From NCBI RefSeq assembly GCF_008189525.1, contig NZ_CP043314.1, positions 30,001-62,000 of the forward strand: a stretch of 32,000 bases of DNA, in the 5' to 3' direction. The DNA is from Candidatus Saccharimonadota bacterium. GTDB taxonomy: Bacteria; Pseudomonadota; Alphaproteobacteria; CAJXXZ01; 1604HC. Positions within the stretch are counted from its first letter, which is position 1; every line of letters starts with the position of its first letter. Under the pieces are notes generated by a model that saw nothing but the letters and a program-made list of their open reading frames with translations, was not told where the DNA came from and did no database searches. Position numbers and translations under genes: made by a program. Below are positions 863 to 21,940 of the stretch, piece after piece.

Positions 863-1531
863 TTACGCCTTCTTATTTATATTAGATTTCCTGGTTATAT
901 TAGAATTATATTTCTTGTTTGGGCCTAAGGGCTTTAAGCTTACATTTCTTGTAGATTTTGCTAAATTATTCCTTTTTACAGGGTTTGTTCTAATTGACTT
1001 AGAGTTAGGAAGTTTATAGCTTATATTATTTTGGTTTCTTAGGTTTTTTGAATTTTCTGTTTCTGTAGGATTATTTAATTTGATAGTTTTTTGTTCATTG
1101 TTAATAGTGTTTCTATTTTTATTAATACCATCATCAATTAATGTGCCTTGATTATTAGGAGTATTTCCATCATAAGCTCCATTAATAGATTTCTGATCAT
1201 TATGGATTGGATTAGATGAGCTATCTGTATTCTTTTGTGCATTTTGTACATTAGATAGATTTCTAAGCTCAGATATATTCTGCTTGCTTTCTCTTTTTAC
1301 AAGAATTCCTGTGTATAAACAGAAAAAAACAAACATTGTAGCAAAGAAATAAGTAGCTTTTTCTGCTGGGTTTAATTTGTATCTTTTTTTTGGTCCTATG
1401 TTTTGCCCTATTCTTTCTTCTGGGTTTTGCAGAAAAATAACTAAAGACATTAAAATTACTGCCAAAAGGCTAAAAAACCATGAAATATATAACATAAGAT
1501 TTATTCTATTGAAAATTTTCTTCTTTATCAA
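863..1531 (-). CDS. secG: SecG-like preprotein translocase subunit with a ~140-aa Asn-rich C-terminal tail
   Basis: Two N-terminal TM helices in SecG layout: LMLYISWFFSLLAVILMSLVIFLQ, a loop, then KATYFFATMFVFFCLYTGIL (compare E. coli RMTALLATLFFIISLVLGNI). It lies immediately upstream of pyrG, which I recall as common synteny in alphaproteobacteria. The track start is TTG at 1531; the ATG at 1495 (MLYISW...) is an alternative. The tail is low complexity. Confidence 0.5.
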   Translation of the reverse strand: MIKKKIFNRINLMLYISWFFSLLAVILMSLVIFLQNPEERIGQNIGPKKRYKLNPAEKATYFFATMFVFFCLYTGILVKRESKQNISELRNLSNVQNAQKNTDSSSNPIHNDQKSINGAYDGNTPNNQGTLIDDGINKNRNTINNEQKTIKLNNPTETENSKNLRNQNNISYKLPNSKSIRTNPVKRNNLAKSTRNVSLKPLGPNKKYNSNITRKSNINKKA

Positions 1532-1622: not shown

Positions 1623-2042
1623 ATGTGTATATTTTGCGTGTTTTGGTTCTTACCATTTCTAACTAATGCTAATTTATTTGTTTTCTTTGCTCTTGCTGGG
1701 TTGTTTGTAATTTCTTTATTTAAGCCAAAGGTTTTGCCTATTTTCGTCGGCGCTACGTTATTTACCTTTTTGTTTAAAATAACATATGCTAATCCCTATT
1801 CTTTGCTAGTTACAATTCCTGTAATTGCTTTATTTCATAAGAATATGAAAAAAATATATTATAAGATGTTTGTAGAAAAAACTTGCTCAAGTACAAGTAA
1901 CGTATTCTTTTCTTCATCTATTGTGTTTGTGATAGCAATGTTCGTAGGCCATGGATTGTTCTACTTTATTCCAGTCAACCCTTACATTAAATTCTTGATA
2001 ATGAGCTTAGTATCATTCTTTGGGTACAAATATTTACACTGA
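1623..2042 (+). CDS. hypothetical polytopic membrane protein (about 4 predicted TM helices)
   Basis: A 139-aa ORF is long for AT-rich DNA, where stop codons are frequent. It has several hydrophobic stretches (FLPFLTNANLFVFFALAGLFVISLF, LPIFVGATLFTFLF, SLLVTIPVIALF, IVFVIAMFVGHGLFYFI, FLIMSLVSFFGY). I recognise no family and see no clear SD. Confidence 0.4.
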   Translation: MCIFCVFWFLPFLTNANLFVFFALAGLFVISLFKPKVLPIFVGATLFTFLFKITYANPYSLLVTIPVIALFHKNMKKIYYKMFVEKTCSSTSNVFFSSSIVFVIAMFVGHGLFYFIPVNPYIKFLIMSLVSFFGYKYLH

Positions 2043-2209: not shown

Positions 2210-2602
2210 ATGAAAATGATATCTGTTACTAGTTCAGGGTGTATGAGTTGTACAATGGGACTTATTCCTTCTATGTTGGGCGTTTTGCCAATAAATAGGG
2301 TTATGACTGACTCTAAAATTCAATCTAATATTATGGACCATATGCCTTTGGTAAATGTTATGTCTTTTGGTATGTGTAAAACTCCTACTAACCCTGCAGT
2401 TGCTGCAGTTATAATTGCTAGCTTAGGAAGTGTTACACAAGCACCATGTATTCCAATGACTATGTCCCCATGGATGCCAGGATCACCAACAGTGCTTGTC
2501 GGTGGAAAGCCTGCTGTTTCTAAGGATTGTAAGTTAATGTGTGCTTACGGTGGGATGATTAGTATAACTAGCCCTGGTCAATTCACAGCTAAGATTCCTT
2601 AA
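2210..2602 (+). CDS. DUF4280 / PAAR-like protein (putative T6SS spike-tip protein), stand-alone with no effector extension
   Basis: A small protein of about 130 aa with six Cys (positions 11, 14, 56, 80, 107, 111). Motifs match the DUF4280 pattern: CMSCTMG, MPLVNVMSFGMCKT, APCIP, W.PGSPTVLVGGKPA, DCKLMCAYGGMISI. AGGAG at 2205-2209 abuts the ATG at 2210, so the ATG at 2216 (MISVT...) is the more likely start. Confidence 0.75.
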   Translation: MKMISVTSSGCMSCTMGLIPSMLGVLPINRVMTDSKIQSNIMDHMPLVNVMSFGMCKTPTNPAVAAVIIASLGSVTQAPCIPMTMSPWMPGSPTVLVGGKPAVSKDCKLMCAYGGMISITSPGQFTAKIP

Positions 2603-7338: not shown

Positions 7339-7836
7339 ATGTGTAATGTTGAAGTAAAAAAAGTAAGTTTAGGGGTTAAAGACATATTTGAGCTTATTCC
7401 ACATAGATTTCCATTTTTATTAGTTGACAAAGTTTCCGAGATTGCGGAACTTGAATCTGCAAAAGGAATAAAAGCATTTAGTTATAATGAATATTTTTTC
7501 CAGGGTCATTTTCCAGAATCTCCAGTTGTTCCTGGAGTATTATTAGTAGAGAGCTTGGCACAGCTTGCAGTTTGCTGTGTGTCTTATTCTTTGAAGTACT
7601 TTAAGCAAATGCAATTTGAGAGTGTTGCTTTGATGACAGTAGATTCTGCTAAATTCAGAGTTGCAGTTGTTCCAGGAGATCTGGTGAATATGTCAGTTCG
7701 TAAAGTTAATGAAAAAATGTTGTCTAATAAAGATGGAAAAATTACTACAGTTTATACTTTTTCTGGATATGGTTTAGTTGGTGATAAAAAAGCTTTCGAA
7801 GCATCTTTTAAGGCAATTGCTGTTTTTTTTAAATAG
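7339..7836 (+). CDS. fabZ: 3-hydroxyacyl-ACP dehydratase FabZ
   Basis: IPHRFPFLLVDKV...GHFPESPVVPGVLLVESLAQL is the FabZ hot-dog active-site signature. Length is 165 aa. Confidence 0.92.
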   Translation: MCNVEVKKVSLGVKDIFELIPHRFPFLLVDKVSEIAELESAKGIKAFSYNEYFFQGHFPESPVVPGVLLVESLAQLAVCCVSYSLKYFKQMQFESVALMTVDSAKFRVAVVPGDLVNMSVRKVNEKMLSNKDGKITTVYTFSGYGLVGDKKAFEASFKAIAVFFK

Positions 7837-8216: not shown

Positions 8217-11200
8217 TTATTTTTTAGCAAGTGATTTCTTGGTAGGTTTAGATTTAGTATTCTTACATGATTTAGGAGTAATTGTTTTTCTTTTAAAAAA
8301 TACTGCTGGAGCTTTAAGTTTAAAATTAGGCCATGATTTCAAATATCCATCAATCTCCATTTTTATCCAAGTGGAAACTTTCTCACCATTTTTTAGTAGC
8401 GCTTCATATTTTATTTCCTTTATATTTCCTTTAGTTTGTGAAATATATTTATTTATCCATTTTAGCAAAGGAATGCTTCCATTTAGTATTTCTTTATTGT
8501 GCTTATTCCCGTTCTTAAACAGCAAGTTGTTCTCCTTAGATAAGGATAATAGCGTTTTCAAAGTTGTTGAGCTTAACGGGATTGTAAATGGATCACTCTG
8601 CAATGAATATTCCTGGGTGCCGAATATAAATTTAGAGTTAGATATATTTTCAATCATTGATTCACAGTTTCTACTCCTCATGGTGATTTTAATATTTGTA
8701 GCCTTACCTTTTGGATCAAAATAAGCTGCTACGAATTTTATAGATCTTTCCATGTTTTCTAGAAAATCTAGAGTATTTTTGCTTAAATTTAATTTCTCTG
8801 CATTTTGCTCATATTTAGTATTATTCTTAAATTCATTCCATTTATTGTGCAATTTTTCTGCACTGGCTTTATTATTTATGTAAGGAAAAGTACTTGCTTC
8901 TTTCTCCATATATTTCTTGAATTTGCTATACTCTAGTTCGAAGTTTTGTTTGTTCTTATCTTTACACTGTGTCTTTATATTTGAAAATACTTTTCCTCCA
9001 ATTAGTTCGAATATTTTGCTTTGATTTACTTTGCTTGTAGCATCTGAATCACAGTTTGGATTCTCAAAATAATTCATTCCATTTATGATTATCTCTTCTA
9101 TTTGTTTTATAACCGAGTCATCTCCTTTTTTATGCTTATCAACTTCTAATAGTATTTTGCTCCACTTTTCTACTATTTCTATTTGAGGTTCATAATCTAT
9201 TTCATGTATTTTCTTTATCATTTCTATAACTGGCTTAGCAAAGTTGCAAATTTTAATTAGTTCAGCTTGCTCTCTTTCTAATTTAGAAATAATTTTATCT
9301 TTGTTCATAAAGAAAAACTTCTTGTTTTTAAAATCTATATACAAATTAGCATTTTCCAACATTTTATCAATTCTAAACAGTGATTTGTAGCATTGATCCA
9401 TCAGCATTGTTTTAAGGATTTGGTACATATTATTATCATTTTCCTTAAGTGTAGACAGTATCTTGATCAGAGAATGAGTATTCGATTCTAGATTTTTCTT
9501 AACTATTTGCTCTGATTGGTTCGGAACGCTAGAAATAGTATCTGTAAGAATCTTAGCATCTTCTAGCTCTGTTTCTATGAATTTTATCAAATGTTCTAAC
9601 GCCATAGATTCTAATGTAGGTTTTAGTTTAGGTTTCTTCTGAAGCAGTCCAGAAGACATGAAGCTTTCGAACGAAGATATAGCATCTACTGTAGATCTTA
9701 TAATTACAGAATCCCAGGTTAATGTTTTATGAGCAGGAATATTTGTATTCAGTGTTTGGGTTTCTTTTTGCATAAACTGTTTTGCAGAAAGTATGTTTAG
9801 ATAACCCTGAAATTCTTCGAATTCTTTGGAAAGTTCTACTTTTCCTGATTTTGTCTGGATTATCTTTCCTACCACAGGAACTTTGTGATTCTCTAAGATC
9901 TTTTTCAGTTTTACAGATGAATCTTTAAGGCTTTCTGTAGTTTTCCTATGAGCTTTTTCTCCAAGTATAGAGCTATTCTTTAATCTAAATAACATGGAAG
10001 TGAATTTAGATCCGAAGTTTATATTATCTTGTAAAATCCATTTTAACTCTTGCCTATTAAAGTGGCTTATAAAGTTCTCTACAATCTCTTTTAGAACATG
10101 TATGTTATGGAATTTATTTTTATTATGTTCAATGCTCCATAGTGTGTTTTCTAACTTAGTTAAGTGAGGGTTCACATTTTCATATTCGAATGTATTTTTC
10201 AAAAATCTTTCAAGTAATTTGTTGAATATTAAGTTTATTTTATTCTCAAATTTAAACACAGATTCTATTTTTATATTTATATGATTTATTGCTTTTATGA
10301 AAACTTTCTTGTTGTCGAAAAATATTTTTTGTAATTTTATGTTGAATAATTTTTCCATTACATATGTTAGATCATCTATATTTTTCAAATATGGAAGTCT
10401 TTCAATTCTGTAATAAATATTTTCTATTTCAGAAATTTCTTTTACATAGCTATATAACCTAATTAGATCGACTGAATTTGTTGGATCGTAATAATCTGGG
10501 TTTGATTTGTTTACTTTCTTTAGTGGTCCATTAGAAAGTGATTTTAGCTTATAAGAAAATTTGCTTTGTAGCGGATCAAACAATACTTTTTCGAACAATT
10601 GGCCAAGGAATTTTTCTAGATTCTTACCTAACTTAGAATTCCATGATGCAGGGATTGATACAAATTTTAGATTTTTTGCATTTAACTTGCTCATAGTAAC
10701 TATTAATGAGTCGACTTGCTTGGAGAAATTCTCATCTTCAGATTCTGCATAAGTAAGGCTTCTCAATGACTTAGATTTCTTTAGTATTTCGTTTGCTGAA
10801 TCTATATTTGCCAAGAAATCTACCTGTATTTTTTTTATGTTGTGAATAAAGTGAATAAAGTTAAATATTGATAAAATACTTAACGCTATTAAAGATGCTT
10901 GTATAAACATAATTTTACGTTTCTTAGAGAAAGCAATTTTTTTAATACTATTTGTCAGATATTTCTCTTGGAATATCTTGTTTGTAAATAGGTTGGTAGA
11001 GAAGAATATTTTGTTAACAGCATGTCTCATGCAAACATTTTTTAGTTTCCCAAACTTAGATTCTCTAAGTGACTCATTTATTTGGCTCTGCGCTTTTGAA
11101 AATGAAGTGGCAGATCCAGTAAAGTAAATCCCTCTAATATTTAAATTGTCATGATATGAATTGGATTTTATGATGTAATTTAAGAAAGTTTCTATTTTTC

Positions 11201-12095
11201 TCTTTATTTTCATGAACTGAAATGGAAAAACATACAGTCCACTGTGATTTTGGTAATCTACGCTTCCAACAGTTAGTTTCTGACTAATATAATGTATCCT
11301 AGAAATAATTTCATCAAACATTTCATCAACAAATATTGTATTGTTGGAGGAAGAATTCGACCATCCAAATATTTCATTTTTATCTTTTTCAGGGATAGAA
11401 TTGCAAAAGTTACCAAATCCAGGTATGCAATCTGCATTTGTAAATACTATGTATATAGGAAAGCTTATTGATAAGTTCTTTTGCATTTGCCATATTTTTA
11501 TGTAGTATTCTTCGGCTGCTTTATATATATTCTCGTCAGAGGTTAATATATCTTTCAGAGAGACAGTGAGTACAGCTGAATCTATTGGAGAATCAGGCCT
11601 GTAGTAGTTAAGTAGGTTTAACGTATTATGCCATTTCAAATCTGTGTTTTCTGATGAGGATGAGAATATTTCTGAGCTAGTATCTAATATTATTCCTTGA
11701 TTGAAGAATGACCATGTACAAGTTTCTCCAATTATATCTTCAAATGGCTTCTCTGTCTCCAAGCTCTGTATTAATGAGGTTTTTCCAGAGCTTTGCTTTC
11801 CTATTAAAATTGTTAGAGGAAGTTTGTATTTAAAGTTTCTGCCACCTATAAATGATTTTAAGGTTTGCATCGCCTCTTCAAATGCCTCTTCATCCTTGTT
11901 GCTTTTTAGGCAGCTTCTTTCGAGGGTTATATTGAAAGAATCTAATAAGTAGTTCTTAGCTTTTTCTGCCATCTTTTTTATATTTGTAATACCAGGAAGG
12001 AATTTTAATATTAAGATTATAAGAATTGCTATTAATGCGTACAAAGCATATGTTACGTACTGTAGATCAATTTTGCTTATTTCGTTTAAAATCAT
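8217..12095 (-). CDS. tssM: TssM / IcmF-family inner-membrane NTPase (T6SS membrane-complex component)
   Basis: 1292 aa with an N-terminal TM helix, then Walker A GKQSSGKT (nt 11778-11801, checked codon by codon). It shows the IcmF cytoplasmic-domain pattern: CTWSFFNQGIILDTSS, RPDSPIDSAVLTVSLKDIL, FPIYIVFTNADCIPGFGNF, EIFGWS, VFPFQFMKIK, IRGIYFTGSA. A TM helix follows (IMFIQASLIALSILSIFNFIHFI), then a long diverged C-terminal domain. ATGA overlap with tssL. Confidence 0.85.
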   Translation of the reverse strand: MILNEISKIDLQYVTYALYALIAILIILILKFLPGITNIKKMAEKAKNYLLDSFNITLERSCLKSNKDEEAFEEAMQTLKSFIGGRNFKYKLPLTILIGKQSSGKTSLIQSLETEKPFEDIIGETCTWSFFNQGIILDTSSEIFSSSSENTDLKWHNTLNLLNYYRPDSPIDSAVLTVSLKDILTSDENIYKAAEEYYIKIWQMQKNLSISFPIYIVFTNADCIPGFGNFCNSIPEKDKNEIFGWSNSSSNNTIFVDEMFDEIISRIHYISQKLTVGSVDYQNHSGLYVFPFQFMKIKRKIETFLNYIIKSNSYHDNLNIRGIYFTGSATSFSKAQSQINESLRESKFGKLKNVCMRHAVNKIFFSTNLFTNKIFQEKYLTNSIKKIAFSKKRKIMFIQASLIALSILSIFNFIHFIHNIKKIQVDFLANIDSANEILKKSKSLRSLTYAESEDENFSKQVDSLIVTMSKLNAKNLKFVSIPASWNSKLGKNLEKFLGQLFEKVLFDPLQSKFSYKLKSLSNGPLKKVNKSNPDYYDPTNSVDLIRLYSYVKEISEIENIYYRIERLPYLKNIDDLTYVMEKLFNIKLQKIFFDNKKVFIKAINHINIKIESVFKFENKINLIFNKLLERFLKNTFEYENVNPHLTKLENTLWSIEHNKNKFHNIHVLKEIVENFISHFNRQELKWILQDNINFGSKFTSMLFRLKNSSILGEKAHRKTTESLKDSSVKLKKILENHKVPVVGKIIQTKSGKVELSKEFEEFQGYLNILSAKQFMQKETQTLNTNIPAHKTLTWDSVIIRSTVDAISSFESFMSSGLLQKKPKLKPTLESMALEHLIKFIETELEDAKILTDTISSVPNQSEQIVKKNLESNTHSLIKILSTLKENDNNMYQILKTMLMDQCYKSLFRIDKMLENANLYIDFKNKKFFFMNKDKIISKLEREQAELIKICNFAKPVIEMIKKIHEIDYEPQIEIVEKWSKILLEVDKHKKGDDSVIKQIEEIIINGMNYFENPNCDSDATSKVNQSKIFELIGGKVFSNIKTQCKDKNKQNFELEYSKFKKYMEKEASTFPYINNKASAEKLHNKWNEFKNNTKYEQNAEKLNLSKNTLDFLENMERSIKFVAAYFDPKGKATNIKITMRSRNCESMIENISNSKFIFGTQEYSLQSDPFTIPLSSTTLKTLLSLSKENNLLFKNGNKHNKEILNGSIPLLKWINKYISQTKGNIKEIKYEALLKNGEKVSTWIKMEIDGYLKSWPNFKLKAPAVFFKRKTITPKSCKNTKSKPTKKSLAKK

Positions 12096-12931
12096 GACTT
12101 GCTCCAGTTGAATGTGTTGTTTATAAGGTTAAGTTTTCGGTTATTTGCAGAGCATGAATTTTGGTCACTGCTTTCTTCTTTGTTTATTCGTGCGTTCATT
12201 ATCTTTTTTTTCATTAAATGCATTTCAGACGTTTTTGAAATTGCACTATTTATATCATGTGTGAAATAATTCCAGAGAATATAAGTCGACCCTATATATA
12301 TAAGAATTCCCATAGTCATTATAGATATAATTCTTCTTGTGTTTTTATAAGTGTTTCTAGGTCTTCCAATCATATTGTGTTTCTCAGCTTGAGGGAACAA
12401 ATGTTCATCAGACAGATAGTCATAGCTTGTTTTATTTACGAAATCAAATAGATCCTGCTTTAGCTTATGTATTGTTCCATTATCATTTATGCTTCTGTAC
12501 TGACCTCTAAAACCTGATCCAAGAAGAGTTATATAAATTGATCCTAACTCGTATTTGTTGTGTGAGTTTCGTTTTAGAAAGCTATTTATATTTTCAAATA
12601 TCTTTGACCCAGCATAATATGTGGAGAAGAATTTTTGTTCCATAAGAGATTTTTGCCATTCTTTCTTCTGGTTCCAATTTACATTGATAAAAATTTCATC
12701 AGCAAAAGCACAGCAAATGTAGCTATATTCTTCATATGCATTGCTCATTAAACTTCCCTCATTATCAAAAAGTTCCTTCTGATCTTTTAATAGTCGTATT
12801 AGTACATTTTTGATTTCTTCTTGATTTATTTTTTCTGGTTCTATTAAAGCCTGCTCTTTGAACTTTAGTACTTCTATATAATAATTTTGGAAGTGCTTTA
12901 ATAGAAAAGATCTAGCTATTAAATTAATCAT
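12092..12931 (-). CDS. tssL: TssL / DotU-family protein (T6SS membrane-complex component), no peptidoglycan-binding extension
   Basis: DotU signature: YEEYSYICCAFADEIFINVNWNQKKEWQKSLMEQKFFSTYYAGSKIFENI...ELGSIYITLLGSGFRGQYR, then a single C-terminal TM (IISIMTMGILIYIGSTYILWNYF). The track start is TTG at 12958. I prefer the ATG at 12931 (MINLIARS...), which follows AAGGA at suitable spacing. Confidence 0.8.
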   Translation of the reverse strand: MINLIARSFLLKHFQNYYIEVLKFKEQALIEPEKINQEEIKNVLIRLLKDQKELFDNEGSLMSNAYEEYSYICCAFADEIFINVNWNQKKEWQKSLMEQKFFSTYYAGSKIFENINSFLKRNSHNKYELGSIYITLLGSGFRGQYRSINDNGTIHKLKQDLFDFVNKTSYDYLSDEHLFPQAEKHNMIGRPRNTYKNTRRIISIMTMGILIYIGSTYILWNYFTHDINSAISKTSEMHLMKKKIMNARINKEESSDQNSCSANNRKLNLINNTFNWSKS

Positions 12932-13067: not shown

Positions 13068-13158
13068 TGGCGGAAGGAGAGGGATTCGAACCCTCGATAC
13101 GGTGATTCCGTATACACACTTTCCAGGCGTGCGCCTTCAGCCGCTCGGCCACCCTTCC
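13068..13158 (-). tRNA. tRNA-Ser (anticodon GGA), long variable arm, CCA encoded
   Basis: The reverse complement is GGAAGGGTGGCCGAGCGGCTGAAGGCGCACGCCTGGAAAGTGTGTATACGGAATCACCGTATCGAGGGTTCGAATCCCTCTCCTTCCGCCA. The cloverleaf folds by hand, with anticodon loop CTGGAAA. Confidence 0.9.
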
Positions 13159-13167
13159 ATTAACAAA

Positions 13168-13241
13168 TCGGGGCGAGAGGATTTGAACCTCTGACCCCCT
13201 GCTCCCAAAGCAGATGCGCTGCCAGACTGCGCTACGCCCCG
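13168..13241 (-). tRNA. tRNA-Pro (anticodon UGG)
   Basis: The reverse complement is CGGGGCGTAGCGCAGTCTGGCAGCGCATCTGCTTTGGGAGCAGGGGGTCAGAGGTTCAAATCCTCTCGCCCCGA. It is 74 nt with anticodon loop TTTGGGA, and CCA is not encoded. Confidence 0.9.
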
Positions 13242-15147: not shown

Positions 15148-17556
15148 TTAAATTGCACCAAAGAAAAATAGCTTACCAAATCTTCCGACTTTTACTATAA
15201 ATGAGTAGTTTTCAGATAAAGAAATATTTGAATTTCTAAAATCTTCATTTTTCTCTATTTCTATCAATGTTCCATCAATAGCTTTAGCAGATATACTTGT
15301 TTCTGTTTCGCTAACAAATAAAACATATTTTAATTTGGTTTTTGATCTAGGTTTAGAGTGTATTATAGTTATCATTCTATCTACAGCATCTGATAATAAT
15401 TGCTTATTAATTCCATGTATTTTGATTTCATTTTGTTCTTTGTTTAATGTAAATCCTACAGATCCAGAGAAATTATCTGTTATTACAGCGTTCAGCTTTT
15501 GCAGAACATTAGATTTTAATTCTGAACTTAGTTTAATTAAGTGTGATTCTACAAAGTTAGGGTTTTTGCCATCAGCTTTTTTATTAGACTGACTATCCTT
15601 AGGATTGACTGACTTTTTCTGGTCTAAATCTTCAACAACAGAGCTTCTTTTTTTGTTATTATCTTTCTTTTTATTTCTAAAATCCTCTGCATCATCTTTT
15701 GGATTTTTATGCTTACCTGATTCTGTTAAAGATATATTGTCACTTTTTCTGTCTTTTTTAACATATTCGGATTTGTTGTTATTGTCAGATTGAGGTTGTG
15801 CCGAACTTTTTTCACTATCTTCTTTAGAGTATGATTTTTTACTTCTTCTTAGATTTTCACTTTCAGGTCTTTTAGTGTTAGGTTCACTTTCATCATCTTT
15901 TGGGTTTTTATGTTCATTTGACTTAGAATTAAAGTTTTTGCTAGAAACTTGTCTATTGTCAATTTCATGATCTGTTTTTACATTTTTACTAGATTCATTC
16001 TGTGGATAAAGATTCTTAATTATTTGAATTATTTCCTCTTGTCCAGCTATAAGTCCTGAGTTTAGATTTGAAACTGATATAGAGGATGGTTTTATATCTA
16101 ACTGTATAGAAGTAAATCCATTAACTGTTCCAGAGACTTTTAAGTCCATATCTCCTGCAAAATCCTCAAGCTCAGTAATGTCAGACAATATATAGCTTTC
16201 AAAACCATCTGATACCATTCCTATGGAAATTCCTGCTACAGGGTTTGTAATATTCACTCCAGCATCAGTCATTGCAAGATATGCTGAGCATAAACTTCCC
16301 ATAGAAGAGGATCCATCTGAAGAAATAACGTCGCAAACAACTCTCATAACTCTTTTATCACTTATTAAAGGCTTCAAAGATCTCTTTACTAAGTTTCCAT
16401 GCCCGATTTCTCGTCTAGTTACAGATAAGTTCCTCTTTACGCTTCCGCAGGCATGTGGTTCAAAAATATATTGAACCATAAACCTATCCCTGTAATTACC
16501 TTCAAGGCTTTCTACCATTTGATTGTCTTCTGGATTCCCAAATGTGATTTTTGAGAACACCTTAGTTTTACCTTTTGAGTACAAAGCATTCTTATCCACT
16601 GGAATTACATTTGTCATAACATTCATTTTTCTAGATTCTAGGAAAGATCTTCCATCTAATCTTTTTTTAGACCAGATAATATATTTTCTAATGATTTGTT
16701 TTACAGATTTGTTCCACTCATCACTTCCTATTGATTTGTTGTTCCAGTTTGATAGGAATTTTAGTTTCTCTCCAGATAAGTCTTGGTCGTTTTGTAAAAG
16801 AGATAAAATCTTTTTATGATCTACGACTGAATCTCTAGACTCAGACATAGGTGCTACTTGAGCTGCTTTTCTTTTTACAGAATAGATAGCTTCCAAAACT
16901 TCATTGTTTTTTCCAGAAAACTCTATGATTCCTTTTAGGATTTGTTTCCTAGATGCAGGTTCTCCATAGTAATCTACCATAGTAAGCCCATTTACATTTG
17001 AACAGAACAATAGCCCATTTTTTTCATTATTAGCTGACTTTTTCCATACTCCATCTTTAAAAGTTATTTTGCATGCTGAAATGGGTTCAAAAGGAACTCC
17101 AGATTCATAAAGAGCTGCAGAAGCTCCTATTGTAGCTAACTCTTCATTGGAGTTGTTCTTGTCATGACTCATAACTGTACAGAAGATCTGTATTTCGTAC
17201 TTAAAGGAAGGCGCTATGCAAGGTCTGATAGATCTATCTATGCTTCTAGAAATAAGCATATCAGATTCTTTTCTAGGTTCTTTTTTTATAAATCCGCCAG
17301 GTATTCTATTTGCTGAATAAGAACGCTCTTGGTAGTTTATTTGTAATGGAACAGAGGAAAATGCCTCATCCCAAGATCCAATGCAAACTTTACAAAGTAT
17401 AGCAGTATTGCCTTTTTTAACCAAAACAGAAGAATCAGACCTTGAATCAAAAGTAGAAAAATCTAAAGTTATTTTTTGATTTTCCTCTTCGTTTCTAAAT
17501 GTTATAATTTTATTTGTTTTGGGTTTTTGATTTAAATTTTCAGTTTGAAAGTGCAT
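15148..17556 (-). CDS. pnp: polyribonucleotide nucleotidyltransferase (PNPase) with a ~145-aa charged low-complexity insertion
   Basis: Both RNase PH domains are recognisable (YSANRIPGGFIKKE...SRSIDRSIRP; RLDGRS...; SSDGSSSMGSLCSAYLAMTDAGV; EDFAGDMDLKVSGT). A KH/S1-like C-terminus is present. Position is truB-rpsO-pnp, starting 3 nt after the rpsO stop. Confidence 0.9.
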   Translation of the reverse strand: MHFQTENLNQKPKTNKIITFRNEEENQKITLDFSTFDSRSDSSVLVKKGNTAILCKVCIGSWDEAFSSVPLQINYQERSYSANRIPGGFIKKEPRKESDMLISRSIDRSIRPCIAPSFKYEIQIFCTVMSHDKNNSNEELATIGASAALYESGVPFEPISACKITFKDGVWKKSANNEKNGLLFCSNVNGLTMVDYYGEPASRKQILKGIIEFSGKNNEVLEAIYSVKRKAAQVAPMSESRDSVVDHKKILSLLQNDQDLSGEKLKFLSNWNNKSIGSDEWNKSVKQIIRKYIIWSKKRLDGRSFLESRKMNVMTNVIPVDKNALYSKGKTKVFSKITFGNPEDNQMVESLEGNYRDRFMVQYIFEPHACGSVKRNLSVTRREIGHGNLVKRSLKPLISDKRVMRVVCDVISSDGSSSMGSLCSAYLAMTDAGVNITNPVAGISIGMVSDGFESYILSDITELEDFAGDMDLKVSGTVNGFTSIQLDIKPSSISVSNLNSGLIAGQEEIIQIIKNLYPQNESSKNVKTDHEIDNRQVSSKNFNSKSNEHKNPKDDESEPNTKRPESENLRRSKKSYSKEDSEKSSAQPQSDNNNKSEYVKKDRKSDNISLTESGKHKNPKDDAEDFRNKKKDNNKKRSSVVEDLDQKKSVNPKDSQSNKKADGKNPNFVESHLIKLSSELKSNVLQKLNAVITDNFSGSVGFTLNKEQNEIKIHGINKQLLSDAVDRMITIIHSKPRSKTKLKYVLFVSETETSISAKAIDGTLIEIEKNEDFRNSNISLSENYSFIVKVGRFGKLFFFGAI

Positions 17557-17838: not shown

Positions 17839-19203
17839 TCAGAATGCTAACATACGTTGTGAAAAAAGAGTAGATCCAGAGATATAACCTATTCCAATAA
17901 TTTTATTGTTAGATTTTATTATTATATTTTTTAATGTGTAATTTGTATCATTATTGTCAATATTATTTTCAGTTATCTTCTTAAGAATGTTATCAAGAGA
18001 TTGCTTTTCAGGGCTTTCTAACTCAAGTGAAACCACTTCAGATAGATAGATTGGTATTCCATTTTTAAGGCTATTAGCATGTTCAGTAGATATTTCCAAA
18101 GTTACTAGCTTTTGCTCTATATCAAGGCTTGAGAGATCTGGATTTTGTTCAGTACATGTGTTTATTTTGGTATTTGAGCGATTAAAATCAATGTCATCTA
18201 TGTTTACGCAAAATTTTAGCATTTCTACAGAAAATAACTTTTTATCTTCAATTCTATATGGGTTAGTTTTTCGTTTAGAGCTCTTAATCCATTTTTGACC
18301 TCCATTTTTTATATTTCTAGAGTTTGTTTTTTCTTTTAAATGTTCTTTTGTATTTTCTGATGAAAAATCTTTAGTAGTTATATATTCTGATAGATCCAAA
18401 CAATCCTCATAATTGAAGAAAGAGTGATTTTCTCTGTAAATTTTAGTTACGCAACAAAGACAGCCAAGCTTAGAAGCGATTTCTGCAGCCAAGGATCTAA
18501 CATAAGTTCCTGAGCTACAAGAAACTCTAAAGCAAGCTTTAGCCTTGCACTCGCTGGTTTGAATTGTTTTGTCAGAGTTAGTGTCGGAATCTAAGCTCTG
18601 ATCGTAATCTAAAGATCTAGAGTGATCATGATTAGCGCAAGAATATTCCAACAAATCAATTGTAAAAATATTTATTTCTTTAGGTTTTAGGATTACTTCC
18701 TTCCCTTCCCTAGAAAGCTCATAAGCTCTTTTTCCATTTACTTTACATGCTGAGAATTTTTGAGGAACTTGGAAGTTTATTCCGATCAAATCTTTAAGTA
18801 CATTTTTCAGATCACTCTCGTTAGGAATTTCGTTGTTTTTATCTGTTACATTTCCTTCTAAATCCATTGTGTCAGTTGTATATCCGAAATCTACTGAAAA
18901 AAAATATGTTTTAGGTAATAAATGCATTATGTCTGATAATTTCGTTGCTTCATTGAATAGTATTGGAAGGACCCCTTCTGCCATAGGGTCTAGCGTTCCT
19001 CCATGTCCTATTTTCTTTGATTTAAATGTGCTTTTTATAATCCTTATTACATCTGAAGAAGATACTCCCTTTGGTTTGTTAACTTTCAATATGCAGTTTT
19101 GTTTAATTTCTGCTCTATCTTCTAATTTCTTCCTGCTTGTTTCATTAAGAGTTTTTTTTATGTCTAAAGACGTAGTTTTAGATCCCACATTCATTACACT
19201 CAT
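17839..19203 (-). CDS. truB: tRNA pseudouridine-55 synthase TruB, expanded to 454 aa
   Basis: KPKGVSSSDVIRIIK...KIGHGGTLDPMAEGVLPI contains the catalytic Asp motif, and SGTYVRSLA is present. Position is upstream of rpsO-pnp. It has extra N-terminal, internal and C-terminal segments. Confidence 0.88.
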   Translation of the reverse strand: MSVMNVGSKTTSLDIKKTLNETSRKKLEDRAEIKQNCILKVNKPKGVSSSDVIRIIKSTFKSKKIGHGGTLDPMAEGVLPILFNEATKLSDIMHLLPKTYFFSVDFGYTTDTMDLEGNVTDKNNEIPNESDLKNVLKDLIGINFQVPQKFSACKVNGKRAYELSREGKEVILKPKEINIFTIDLLEYSCANHDHSRSLDYDQSLDSDTNSDKTIQTSECKAKACFRVSCSSGTYVRSLAAEIASKLGCLCCVTKIYRENHSFFNYEDCLDLSEYITTKDFSSENTKEHLKEKTNSRNIKNGGQKWIKSSKRKTNPYRIEDKKLFSVEMLKFCVNIDDIDFNRSNTKINTCTEQNPDLSSLDIEQKLVTLEISTEHANSLKNGIPIYLSEVVSLELESPEKQSLDNILKKITENNIDNNDTNYTLKNIIIKSNNKIIGIGYISGSTLFSQRMLAF

Positions 19204-21259: not shown

Positions 21260-21940
21260 TTATGAATCTGATTTATTATGGTTATTTGTTTTTTTGTAGA
21301 TTTCCTTCATCTTTTCGTACGCCTCATCTTTTGGAATTTCTGTATCAAGTTCTTTGTTCCAAAATTTACATGTTTCAGGAGATATTTCATCTATCAAAAC
21401 CAAGTTTTCTTCATTTTTACCGAATTTCAAAGTTATTTCTGAAATGTAAAGTTTCCATGAAAGAAAGTAAGAAGAAATAACATCATTTACTCTCAAAGAT
21501 ATATTCTTGATTTGTTCTGCCTCTTCTTTTGTTGTTACTTCGAAGTGTACAATATGCTCTTGTGATATTAAGTTTTTGCTACTGTCTTGTGTTAAATACC
21601 ACTCAACCAAAGGTTTGTCGAACTTTGTACCTTCTGGAACTCCAATCAGTTTATTTATTTCTGGAGAAGATATATTAGTCACTTTCAAAGAAAATGGATA
21701 AGGATGAGTAGATTTTACTAACTGCTCTCTTATATTTAATTTTTGTATGTAGTGAGTTTTGATTCCAAAATTATCTAGTATTTCCCAAGAAAATCCAGAT
21801 AAATAATTTCTCCATACATCATTTTTTTCTTCTTCAGGAAAGTGCATGATAATATAGTTATTATTATTAGTTGCATAAAGCAGTTTTTTTTCCTCAGAGC
21901 TTATAAGACGTCTCTCACCAAAAGCGTAATTTCTAAACAT
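21260..21940 (-). CDS. PurC (SAICAR synthetase)-like protein, apparently degenerate
   Basis: It is collinear with PurC as I recall it: GIKTHY, PLVEWYL and LIDEISPETCKFW correspond to GIKTHF, PLVEFF and LGDEISPD..R in PurC. Nucleotide and substrate motifs look altered: EEKK in place of GK[TA]K, and KVT in place of VVR. Confidence 0.55.
   Translation of the reverse strand: MFRNYAFGERRLISSEEKKLLYATNNNNYIIMHFPEEEKNDVWRNYLSGFSWEILDNFGIKTHYIQKLNIREQLVKSTHPYPFSLKVTNISSPEINKLIGVPEGTKFDKPLVEWYLTQDSSKNLISQEHIVHFEVTTKEEAEQIKNISLRVNDVISSYFLSWKLYISEITLKFGKNEENLVLIDEISPETCKFWNKELDTEIPKDEAYEKMKEIYKKTNNHNKSDS

What the first reader, a model, noticed from the sequence alone, without database searches (positions are those of the whole stretch)
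8217..12931. Isolated tssL(DotU)-tssM(IcmF) membrane-complex pair in a reduced, AT-rich genome
Two overlapping minus-strand genes carry clear DotU and IcmF/TssM signatures, including an intact Walker A (GKQSSGKT) and the TM-NTPase-TM layout. In canonical T6SS loci these genes sit among tssJ/K, sheath, tube and baseplate genes. Here the pair stands alone, with tRNA-Pro and tRNA-Ser upstream and fabZ (convergent) downstream. The C-terminal ~800 aa of TssM, normally the periplasmic TssJ-binding part, is too diverged for me to recognise any motif. TssL has only a ~55-aa periplasmic tail and no OmpA-like domain. Keeping a 3.9-kb intact ORF in an eroding genome argues for function, possibly a minimal or rewired secretion apparatus used towards a host.
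Basis: partly seen in the sequence, partly recalled or inferred. Interest (0 to 1): 0.72.

Follow-up and report, generated by a model that had tools for sequence, protein, structure and literature searches.

The report
Known endosymbiont T6SS membrane-anchor gene pair
These two overlapping genes are the TssL and TssM membrane-anchor subunits of the type VI secretion system already described in the protist endosymbiont Candidatus Nesciobacter abundans, so the finding is real but ordinary.

Summary
Window 8217-12095(-) encodes a 1292-aa TssM/IcmF-family protein with Walker A GKQSSGKT. Window 12092-12931(-) encodes a 279-aa TssL/DotU protein. They overlap by 4 bases, with tRNA-Pro and tRNA-Ser upstream and fabZ convergent downstream.

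The window comes from the 616-kb genome of Candidatus Nesciobacter abundans, a Holosporaceae endosymbiont of Diplonema. George et al. (bioRxiv 10.1101/719211, Table S3) already list tssB, C, E, F, G, I, K, L, M, vgrG and iglG/PAAR for this genome. The PAAR-like gene (DUF4280) lies in this window at 2216-2602.

The pair is a trimmed remnant of a module conserved in about 70 related loci: lipoprotein-tssK-tssL-tssM-tssA. It is T6SS, not Dot/Icm.

The "unrecognisable" TssM C-terminus belongs to a distinct, widespread TssM subfamily. Its last ~175 residues are homologous to the canonical IcmF_helical/IcmF_C domains (hhalign Prob 97%, E 3e-11).

The "isolated minimal apparatus" reading is not supported. 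The published "modified T6SS" reading remains open.

Side observations: a probable divergent TssJ lipoprotein sits upstream of tssK in relatives, and two metagenome contigs show Afp/PVC-like injection-system operons ending in tssJ-like/tssL/tssM.

The parts
8217..12095 (-). tssM (icmF-family T6SS inner-membrane subunit), 1292 aa, intact ORF
   Evidence: PF14331 E 4e-42 and TIGR03348 E 2.6e-48, N-terminal half only. 100% identical to an NCBI protein named 'type VI secretion protein IcmF/TssM N-terminal domain-containing protein [Candidatus Nesciobacter...]'. Keeps all 27 invariant columns of a 20-member family alignment.
11988..12056 (-). TssM N-terminal transmembrane segment (residues ~14-36)
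   Evidence: Kyte-Doolittle hydropathy only. All 20 family members show one N-terminal hydrophobic block. By the same method, canonical TssM P0034 shows two.
11778..11801 (-). Walker A / P-loop GKQSSGKT (residues 99-106)
   Evidence: Regex match. G99, G104 and K105 are invariant in the family alignment. Every family member has GxxxxGK[ST].
10914..11636 (-). IcmF-related N-terminal (cytoplasmic) domain, residues 154-394
   Evidence: Pfam PF14331. hhalign against canonical TssM over residues 85-392: Prob 99.96%, E 8.4e-39.
10842..10910 (-). TssM second transmembrane segment (residues ~396-418)
   Evidence: Hydropathy.
8925..10841 (-). TssM periplasmic, mostly helical region (residues ~419-1057), specific to this subfamily
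   Evidence: Conserved within the family. The AlphaFold2 model is helical. No Pfam hit. No profile match to canonical TssM at default hhalign settings.
8400..8924 (-). TssM C-terminal IcmF_helical + IcmF_C (C2-like) homologous region, residues 1058-1232
   Evidence: hhalign of the family profile against a 112-sequence canonical TssM profile: Prob 96.7-97.2%, E 3.7e-10 and 2.9e-11. It aligns to P0034 residues 872-1066, which carry PF21070 and PF06744. Ten column-shuffled controls gave E 0.27-0.92.
12092..12931 (-). tssL (dotU-family T6SS inner-membrane subunit), 279 aa; overlaps tssM by 4 bases
   Evidence: PF09850 E 1.8e-23. Matches solved TssL cytoplasmic domains: 4v3i (V. cholerae) E 1.1e-7 and 3u66 (EAEC) E 1.2e-5. 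Matches the TssL of relative L004 at E 5.6e-33. AAGGA lies 8 nt before the ATG.
12272..12331 (-). TssL C-terminal transmembrane anchor (residues 201-220), followed by a 59-aa tail
   Evidence: Hydropathy. No OmpA or peptidoglycan-binding domain in Pfam.
2216..2602 (+). DUF4280 PAAR-like spike-tip protein (IglG-like), 128 aa; belongs to the same T6SS but is unlinked from the pair
   Evidence: PF14107 E 2e-29, NF041248 T6SS_IglG E 2.3e-12. The public gene call is 128 aa. Listed as iglG/PAAR for N. abundans in George et al. Table S3.

Best explanation

Shown here:
- Identity of the organism.
- Family membership of both proteins.
- An intact P-loop in TssM.
- A TM-NTPase-TM-periplasmic layout for TssM, from hydropathy only.
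- A TssL with a cytoplasmic DotU domain and one C-terminal anchor.
- A TssM C-terminal domain homologous to the canonical IcmF_C domain.
- In relatives, the same subfamily of TssM sits in a conserved lipoprotein-tssK-tssL-tssM-tssA module.

Inferred from what is established for T6SS-i: TssL and TssM form the envelope-spanning anchor. The baseplate (TssK/E/F/G, VgrG, PAAR-like DUF4280) and the TssB/C sheath dock onto it, and sheath contraction drives the spike and its effectors out of the bacterium into the host cytoplasm or into competitors.

The pair looks isolated because Holosporales keep their T6SS genes in several separate modules. In this 616-kb genome the tssK-tssL-tssM-tssA module has been cut down to tssL-tssM. 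According to the published inventory, tssK lies elsewhere and tssA was not detected.
For: Organism and prior annotation:
- The exact protein lies on NCBI GCA_960610765.1 OY490516.1 (616,058 bp) and is named for Candidatus Nesciobacter.
- George et al. Table S3 lists tssBCEFGIKLM, vgrG and iglG/PAAR for N. abundans.

Family membership:
- PF14331, TIGR03348, PF09850 and TIGR03349 all match.
- TssL matches solved T6SS TssL structures.

T6SS rather than T4BSS:
- The closest TssM relatives are flanked by tssK (PF05936) and tssA (PF06812).
- About 70 genome loci, including Ca. Caedibacter acanthamoebae, Paracaedibacter symbiosus, Odyssella thessalonicensis, Finniella and Holosporaceae MAGs, show tssK-tssL-tssM-tssA with this TssM subfamily.
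- IcmH_DotU_IVB scores 34.4 bits against a cut-off of 50.
- A DUF4280 PAAR-like gene lies in the window.

Dispersed modules:
- They are the published norm for Holosporales.

Constraint on the sequence:
- All 27 invariant family columns are kept, seven of them in the periplasmic part.
- The alignment to relatives is continuous over residues ~20-1130.
- The C-terminal domain is homologous to canonical IcmF_helical/IcmF_C.
- GC content (29%) matches the flanks, so this is not a recent import.
Against: - I could not scan the whole genome. The presence of sheath and baseplate genes elsewhere rests on the paper, not on my own search. A TssK-profile search did not show a Nesciobacter protein among the 120 hits listed.
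- The same paper reports no Hcp, TssJ, TssA or ClpV in this genome, so a canonical firing cycle is not assured.
- TssM fails the TIGR03348 whole-protein cut-off, and Pfam sees no PF06761 or PF06744.
- The structure models of the C-terminal part gave no significant Foldseek match to solved TssM.
- There are no expression or functional data.
Confidence: 0.9

Rival explanations
1. The pair works in a truly stripped-down or rewired apparatus. Nesciobacter has really lost Hcp, TssJ, TssA and ClpV, so TssL-TssM anchor a system that does not fire like a canonical T6SS, or they do some other membrane job.
For: - George et al. report no TssD, TssJ, TssA or TssH in N. abundans.
- In 52 kb around the pair I found no homologue of the TssJ-like lipoprotein, TssK or TssA that flank the pair in relatives.
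- TssM is the shortest (1292 aa) and most divergent member of its alignment.
Against: - 'Missing' parts may be detection failures. In relatives, a conserved lipoprotein occupies the tssJ position and hits PF12790 only weakly.
- A tssJ-like gene and an Hcp-like gene were found in the Holosporales symbiont Bodocaedibacter.
- Sheath, baseplate, spike and PAAR-like genes are reported or seen. Those make sense only for a contractile machine.
Confidence: 0.12
2. The pair is IcmF/IcmH(DotU) of a Dot/Icm type IVB secretion system.
For: IcmF and DotU families are shared between T6SS and T4BSS. NF038228 IcmH_DotU_IVB gives a sub-threshold match (E 1.4e-8, 34.4 bits).
Against: - The IVB model scores below its cut-off of 50 and below the generic DotU/TssL model.
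- The same TssM subfamily is flanked by tssK and tssA in about 70 loci.
- A PAAR-like gene lies in the window.
- The published secretion-gene table for this genome lists T6SS genes and no Dot/Icm genes.
Confidence: 0.01
3. The genes are decaying relics that no longer work but have not yet acquired a stop codon.
For: The genome is strongly reduced and AT-rich. TssM is only 17-24% identical to relatives in the family alignment. The adjacent module partners tssK and tssA are gone from this locus.
Against: - A 3.9-kb ORF with no stop at 29% GC is unlikely without selection.
- Walker A and all 27 invariant family positions are kept.
- The 4-base translational overlap and the ribosome-binding site are kept.
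- The T6SS is retained in nearly all Holosporineae, including the smallest genomes.
Confidence: 0.05

Closest known systems
T6SS of Holosporales/Holosporineae endosymbionts (George et al. 2019/2020, bioRxiv 10.1101/719211; Midha et al. 2021, PMC8163844; review PMC11909080)
   Same: This is that system, in the same organism. tssL, tssM and iglG/PAAR are already listed for N. abundans. The genes are dispersed over several loci, with [tssK-tssL-tssM-tssA] as one conserved module.
   Different: In Nesciobacter the module is reduced to tssL-tssM between tRNA genes and fabZ. Neither tssK nor tssA is adjacent.
Canonical T6SS-i TssJLM membrane complex (e.g. EAEC Sci1, V. cholerae VCA0115/TssL)
   Same: - TssL cytoplasmic domain plus one TM anchor, matching 4v3i and 3u66.
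- TssM with a P-loop NTPase domain between TM segments and a large periplasmic part.
- The periplasmic part ends in an IcmF_helical/IcmF_C-like domain.
- The tssJ-position/tssK/tssL/tssM gene order is seen in relatives.
   Different: - TssM belongs to a separate subfamily. The family HMM gives 750-1800 bits and the canonical HMM 100-265 bits on its members; the reverse holds for 112 canonical TssMs.
- The subfamily is longer (about 1300-1450 aa).
- No Pfam PF06761 or PF06744 hit.
- One rather than two N-terminal hydrophobic segments.
- No recognisable TssJ next to the pair in this genome.
Francisella T6SS-ii (PdpB/IcmF, DotU, IglG)
   Same: Intracellular bacterium. DUF4280 PAAR-like protein similar to IglG (E 2.3e-12).
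   Different: - The IglG score (47 bits) is far below the cut-off of 200.
- Relatives carry ordinary TssK (PF05936) and TssA (PF06812), which are T6SS-i marks.
- TssM keeps a Walker A motif.
Legionella/Coxiella Dot/Icm IcmF-IcmH(DotU)
   Same: Homologous protein families. In those bacteria the pair also acts as an inner-membrane accessory.
   Different: The IVB-specific model is below its cut-off. The neighbours of this subfamily are tssK/tssA, and no Dot/Icm genes are seen.

Membership tests
T6SS TssM (IcmF family) | IcmF-related N-terminal cytoplasmic domain with P-loop (Walker A) | tested here: met
   PF14331 E 4e-42. GKQSSGKT at residues 99-106. hhalign against canonical TssM: Prob 99.96%.
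T6SS TssM (IcmF family) | Whole-protein score above the NCBIfam TIGR03348 equivalog cut-off | tested here: not met
   164.8 bits against a cut-off of 388.15. Only model positions 37-551 of 1168 are matched.
T6SS TssM (IcmF family) | Membrane topology: TM segment(s), cytoplasmic NTPase, TM, large periplasmic domain | tested here: met
   Hydropathy segments at 14-36 and 396-418. That is two segments rather than the canonical three. Hydropathy only; no dedicated topology predictor was run.
T6SS TssM (IcmF family) | Periplasmic IcmF-related domain (PF06761) | tested here: not met
   No Pfam hit in this protein or in any of the 20 family members. No hhalign match at default settings.
T6SS TssM (IcmF family) | C-terminal IcmF_helical/IcmF_C (C2-like, TssJ-binding) domain | tested here: met
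   Pfam itself sees nothing: only 1 of 20 members each, at E 0.04-0.09. The family profile against the canonical profile gives Prob 96.7-97.2%, E 3.7e-10 and 2.9e-11, onto the PF21070+PF06744 region, with clean shuffled controls. The Nesciobacter sequence is the most divergent row. Structure comparison was inconclusive.
T6SS TssM (IcmF family) | Genomic association with tssL, tssK and tssA | tested here: met
   tssL overlaps tssM here. tssK and tssA flank the same subfamily in about 70 loci, though not in this genome locally.
T6SS TssL (DotU family) | DotU cytoplasmic domain | tested here: met
   PF09850 E 1.8e-23, 83.7 bits against a cut-off of 27. PDB TssL matches: 4v3i at E 1.1e-7 and 3u66 at E 1.2e-5.
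T6SS TssL (DotU family) | NCBIfam TIGR03349 DotU/TssL cut-off | tested here: inconclusive
   89.4 bits against a cut-off of 89.95, so 0.55 bits short.
T6SS TssL (DotU family) | Single C-terminal transmembrane anchor | tested here: met
   Residues 201-220 of 279, then a 59-aa tail with no peptidoglycan-binding domain.
Type VI secretion system (whole machine) | Sheath TssB/C, baseplate TssE/F/G/K and VgrG spike encoded in the same genome | not tested
   Not present in the 52 kb I could read. Listed for N. abundans in George et al. Table S3. My TssK search did not list a Nesciobacter protein among its top 120 hits.
Type VI secretion system (whole machine) | PAAR or PAAR-like spike tip | tested here: met
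   DUF4280 PF14107 E 2e-29 at window 2216-2602.
Type VI secretion system (whole machine) | Hcp tube, TssJ lipoprotein, TssA, ClpV | not tested
   Reported absent in N. abundans. No TssJ-like or TssA homologue in the 52 kb.
Dot/Icm T4BSS IcmF-IcmH | IcmH/DotU IVB-specific model above its cut-off | tested here: not met
   NF038228 scores 34.4 bits against a cut-off of 50.
Dot/Icm T4BSS IcmF-IcmH | Other dot/icm genes in the genome | not tested
   None in the 52 kb read. None listed in Table S3. The whole genome was not scanned here.

The most novel reading that the evidence does not exclude
The TssM subfamily seen here has no Pfam-detectable periplasmic domains and only one N-terminal TM segment. 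Together with the conserved lipoprotein found upstream of tssK in relatives, it may define an under-recognised variant of the T6SS membrane complex. That variant would be widespread (Holosporales, Myxococcota, Acidobacteriota, Gemmatimonadota). In at least two metagenome lineages it has been attached to Afp/PVC-type contractile injection operons. In Nesciobacter the variant would work without the lipoprotein, TssA, ClpV and a recognisable Hcp, giving a truly minimal host-directed T6SS.
Probability: 0.12. Interest if true: 0.6.

Novelty: already known. Interest (0 to 1): 0.15.

Why it matters
For the finding as given, very little. The genes, the organism and the "modified T6SS" reading were published in 2019/2020.

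It does serve as a check that a sequence-only reader can spot a TssL-TssM pair in a 29%-GC genome.

Two points may help people who study Holosporales symbionts:
- The TssM periplasmic part is a conserved subfamily whose C-terminal domain is still IcmF_C-like.
- The less reduced relatives carry a lipoprotein in the tssJ position. The repeated statement that the Holosporales T6SS lacks TssJ should therefore be re-examined with better profiles before a non-canonical mechanism is assumed.

Tried and rejected
- A second homologous-protein search with the family alignment returned no new proteins.
- A TssK-profile search meant to catch the Nesciobacter TssK listed only the top 120 of 1432 hits, none from Nesciobacter.
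- hmmsearch of the TssM family profile and phmmer of the protein against PDB sequences found only generic P-loop proteins or nothing.
- AlphaFold2 models of residues 421-1292 (pLDDT 74.9) and 1020-1292 (pLDDT 67.0) gave no significant Foldseek match in PDB.
- hhalign against only two canonical TssMs recovered only the cytoplasmic domain and a weak C-terminal hint (E 0.028). A 112-sequence canonical profile was needed.
- The promoter and terminator scan gave no more matches than shuffled sequence, so the operon structure (tRNA-Pro, tRNA-Ser, tssL, tssM on one strand) stays an inference.
- Walking 10 kb beyond each end of the window found no further T6SS genes.
- I considered and rejected Francisella-type T6SS-ii membership. 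The IglG hit is far below its cut-off, and relatives have ordinary TssK and TssA.
- I considered and rejected Dot/Icm.
Full report
**What is in the sequence**

The minus strand carries an uninterrupted 1292-codon ORF at 8217-12095 and an upstream ORF ending at 12092.

- The upstream ORF most likely starts at the ATG at 12931, giving 279 aa. An AAGGA lies 8 nt before it, and the public gene call uses the same start.
- The two genes overlap in ATGA.
- tRNA-Ser(gga) at 13068-13158 and tRNA-Pro(tgg) at 13168-13241 lie upstream on the same strand.
- fabZ (7339-7836, +) converges on the 3' end of the long ORF. It is the last gene of an rseP-bamA-skp-fabZ row.
- GC content is about 29-30% throughout, with no local deviation.

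**Family assignment**

The long protein is a TssM/IcmF-family protein.
- It hits Pfam IcmF-related_N (PF14331, E 4e-42).
- It hits the NCBIfam TssM equivalog TIGR03348 (E 2.6e-48), but only over the N-terminal half and below the whole-protein cut-off.
- It has Walker A GKQSSGKT at residues 99-106 and a Walker-B-like IILDT at 135.
- It has two hydrophobic segments, at about 14-36 and 396-418.

The short protein is a TssL/DotU-family protein.
- It hits Pfam DotU (PF09850, E 1.8e-23).
- It scores 0.55 bits under the TIGR03349 cut-off. The type-IVB-specific IcmH/DotU model scores well under its own cut-off.
- It matches the solved TssL cytoplasmic domains of V. cholerae (4v3i, E 1.1e-7) and EAEC (3u66, E 1.2e-5).
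- It has one transmembrane anchor at residues 201-220, a 59-residue tail and no peptidoglycan-binding domain.

**Where the window comes from**

The exact TssM sequence is encoded on NCBI GCA_960610765.1, record OY490516.1 (616,058 bp), and on a second contig of 616,088 bp. NCBI names it as a TssM N-terminal-domain protein of Candidatus Nesciobacter. Window position plus 331,525 gives the record position.

Candidatus Nesciobacter abundans, renamed Ca. Ignotibacter abundans in PMC11909080, is a Holosporaceae endosymbiont of the diplonemid Diplonema.

George et al. (bioRxiv 10.1101/719211) sequenced it and describe a "modified" T6SS.
- Their Table S3 lists tssB, C, E, F, G, I, K, L, M, tssI/vgrG, cts2N and iglG/PAAR for N. 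abundans.
- They report that the tube (TssD/Hcp) and TssJ are missing. tssA and tssH are not in their list for this species.

So the two genes, and their interpretation as part of a host-directed T6SS, are already in the literature.

**Is the pair really alone?**

Locally, almost.
- I read 52 kb of this genome (record 322,388-372,178) through three look-ups.
- Besides tssL and tssM, the only T6SS-related gene is a DUF4280 PAAR-like protein at window 2216-2602. It scores PF14107 E 2e-29 and matches the Francisella IglG model at E 2.3e-12, far below that model's cut-off.
- Profile and phmmer searches of all ORFs of at least 40 aa in these 52 kb found no TssK, no TssA and no member of the lipoprotein family described below.

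In the genome as a whole the pair is not alone, according to Table S3. I could not verify that independently. My last homologue search, with a TssK profile, did not list a Nesciobacter protein among the 120 hits shown.

**Why it looks isolated**

The closest TssM relatives are 19-25% identical and all come from uncultured bacteria. They sit in tssK-tssL-tssM-tssA rows flanked by housekeeping genes.

A scan of one genome per species with a TssK profile returned 80 loci.
- Holosporales hits include Ca. Caedibacter acanthamoebae, Ca. Paracaedibacter symbiosus, Ca. Odyssella thessalonicensis, Ca. Finniella, and Holosporaceae and Holosporales MAGs.
- Other hits include Sorangium, Polyangium, Chondromyces, Azospirillum, Stellaceae, Bryobacterales and Longimicrobium.
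- Wherever the contig is long enough, the order is lipoprotein-tssK-tssL-tssM-tssA.

Midha et al. [quoted passage not shown]

The Nesciobacter pair is thus the remnant of one such module. It has lost its neighbours on both sides during genome reduction. This last step is an inference from the comparison.

**The C-terminal 870 residues of TssM**

Pfam sees nothing there, in this protein or in any of 20 family members. The region is nonetheless not random.
- phmmer aligns the Nesciobacter protein to relatives in one piece over residues ~20-1130.
- The 20-member alignment has invariant columns at Y919, P955, W978, F1029, Y1056, P1071 and F1258.

This is a separate TssM subfamily.
- An HMM of the family scores its members at 750-1800 bits, while an HMM of 112 canonical TssMs scores them at 100-265 bits.
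- The reverse holds for all 112 canonical proteins.

Profile-profile comparison shows that the end of the protein is still canonical.
- Family residues 1058-1232 (Nesciobacter numbering) align to residues 872-1066 of the canonical TssM P0034. That region holds Pfam IcmF_helical (PF21070) and IcmF_C (PF06744).
- The match has Prob 96.7-97.2% and E 3.7e-10 and 2.9e-11. Ten column-shuffled controls gave E 0.27-0.92.
- Shared motifs include GKFPF against rYPF and GxWxLLRLL against GxWalFrLL.
- The helical middle part (about 420-1057) has no detectable counterpart at default settings.

AlphaFold2 models show a long helical region followed by a beta-rich domain. Their confidence is moderate (pLDDT 74.9 and 67.0), and Foldseek found no significant PDB match. 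The structural test is inconclusive.

By hydropathy, the subfamily has one N-terminal hydrophobic segment where canonical TssM has two.

**Mechanism**

Established knowledge of T6SS-i is that TssL and TssM, with TssJ, form the envelope-spanning membrane complex. The TssK/E/F/G-VgrG baseplate docks on it, and the TssB/C sheath polymerises from the baseplate. I infer the same role here.
- TssL would hook the baseplate from the inner membrane.
- TssM, with an intact P-loop, would span the periplasm through its helical region and reach the outer membrane with its IcmF_C-like end.
- The PAAR-like DUF4280 protein would cap the spike.

Because the bacterium lives free in the host cytoplasm, the target would be host structures or co-resident bacteria, as George et al. 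proposed. None of this is shown experimentally.

**Rivals**

- Dot/Icm IcmF-IcmH is excluded for practical purposes by the tssK/tssA linkage of the subfamily, the model scores, the PAAR-like gene and the published inventory.
- A decaying relic is unlikely. The ORF is 3.9 kb and intact at 29% GC, and the Walker A motif and all 27 invariant family columns, seven of them in the periplasmic part, are retained.
- A truly stripped-down system lacking Hcp, TssJ, TssA and ClpV remains possible (about 0.12). Detection failure is a serious alternative, as the next section shows.

**Side observation: a TssJ candidate**

A protein of about 160-250 aa lies immediately upstream of tssK in nearly all related loci.
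- It has a signal peptide ending in an invariant lipobox cysteine, for example LLVSC|SG, LIVGC|AK and ALVTGC|G.
- It has further invariant residues (N49, E99, P102, G103, F124, A125, Y127, G131, H133, R134).
- Two of 15 members hit Pfam T6SS-SciN (TssJ, PF12790), with best E 0.0021.
- No PDB sequence match was found.

Its position, size, lipidation signal and this weak hit make it a probable divergent TssJ. The literature says the Holosporales T6SS lacks TssJ, although Midha et al. noted a tssJ-like gene in Bodocaedibacter. I did not find this lipoprotein in the 52 kb of Nesciobacter DNA that I could read.

**Side observation: contractile injection operons ending in tssJ-like/tssL/tssM**

Two independent metagenome contigs share one gene order (L003, 364 kb, and L088, 67 kb, both about 58-59% GC).
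- The order is CIS tape-measure (PF19268), AAA ATPase, Pvc16_N, one or two unknown ORFs, the TssJ-like lipoprotein (family HMM E ~2e-39), DotU, and a TssM of this subfamily.
- There is no tssK in this row.
- A full-text search did not turn up a description of such an arrangement. I did not pursue it further.

**Verdict**

It is partly wrong: this is not an isolated minimal apparatus, and the C-terminus can be recognised. The finding is already known for this very genome, so interest is low. The side observations are leads, not results.

Noticed in passing
L004:6997-7749, L002:6810-7727, L032:7370-7975 (Ca. Caedibacter acanthamoebae CP008936.1) and about 60 further loci (alignment A6): A conserved lipoprotein of ~160-250 aa lies directly upstream of tssK in the tssK-tssL-tssM-tssA module. 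It has an invariant lipobox cysteine, and 2 of 15 members hit Pfam T6SS-SciN/TssJ (best E 0.0021). It is probably a divergent TssJ, whereas published accounts say the Holosporales T6SS lacks TssJ. It was not found in the 52 kb of Nesciobacter DNA I could read.
   Followed up: partly
L003:1364-13975 and L088:1-14002 (JGI metagenome contigs Ga0669160_0000005 and Ga0210611_12219323): Two independent contigs carry an Afp/PVC-like contractile injection operon tail (CIS_TMP, AAA ATPase, Pvc16_N). On the same strand it is followed by a TssJ-like lipoprotein, DotU and a TssM of the window's subfamily, with no tssK. This may be an eCIS-type particle coupled to a T6SS membrane complex. A full-text paper search found no description of it.
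   Followed up: partly
window 2216-2602 (+): A DUF4280 PAAR-like (IglG-like) T6SS spike-tip gene stands alone next to rseP-bamA-skp-fabZ, 5.6 kb from tssM. It is preceded by two small membrane-protein ORFs with no family hits: 863-1495(-) and 1623-2042(+).
   Followed up: partly
L002:5692-6813, L004:5978-7000 and L008-L029: In the clade of uncultured Alphaproteobacteria closest to the Nesciobacter TssM, a SPOR-domain (peptidoglycan-binding) membrane protein precedes the lipoprotein-tssK-tssL-tssM-tssA module. It may be a peptidoglycan-anchoring accessory. It is absent from Caedibacter, Paracaedibacter and the non-alphaproteobacterial loci.
   Followed up: partly
L007:15425-18404 (Nesciobacter record OY490516.1, about 324.6-327.6 kb, outside the window): An SrpI-like encapsulin shell protein (PF19307) lies next to a cysteine-desulfurase-like aminotransferase, in a 616-kb endosymbiont genome.
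   Followed up: no
window 15148-17556 (-), 17839-19203 (-), 21260-21940 (-): Several housekeeping ORFs look atypical. PNPase is 802 aa, with only residues 22-524 matched by the family models. TruB is 454 aa, with the TruB model covering residues 36-272. A 226-aa purC-like ORF scores far below the purC cut-off (88.6 against 189.9 bits).
   Followed up: no
L089:1-15045 (Logan SRR29757248 contig, GC 66%): The same TssM subfamily also occurs in an ordinary compact T6SS cluster: tssG, vgrG, DUF2169/pentapeptide, DUF3540, PAAR-like, TssJ-like lipoprotein, tssK, tssL, tssM, tssA. The subfamily is therefore not specific to endosymbionts or to dispersed gene layouts.
   Followed up: partly
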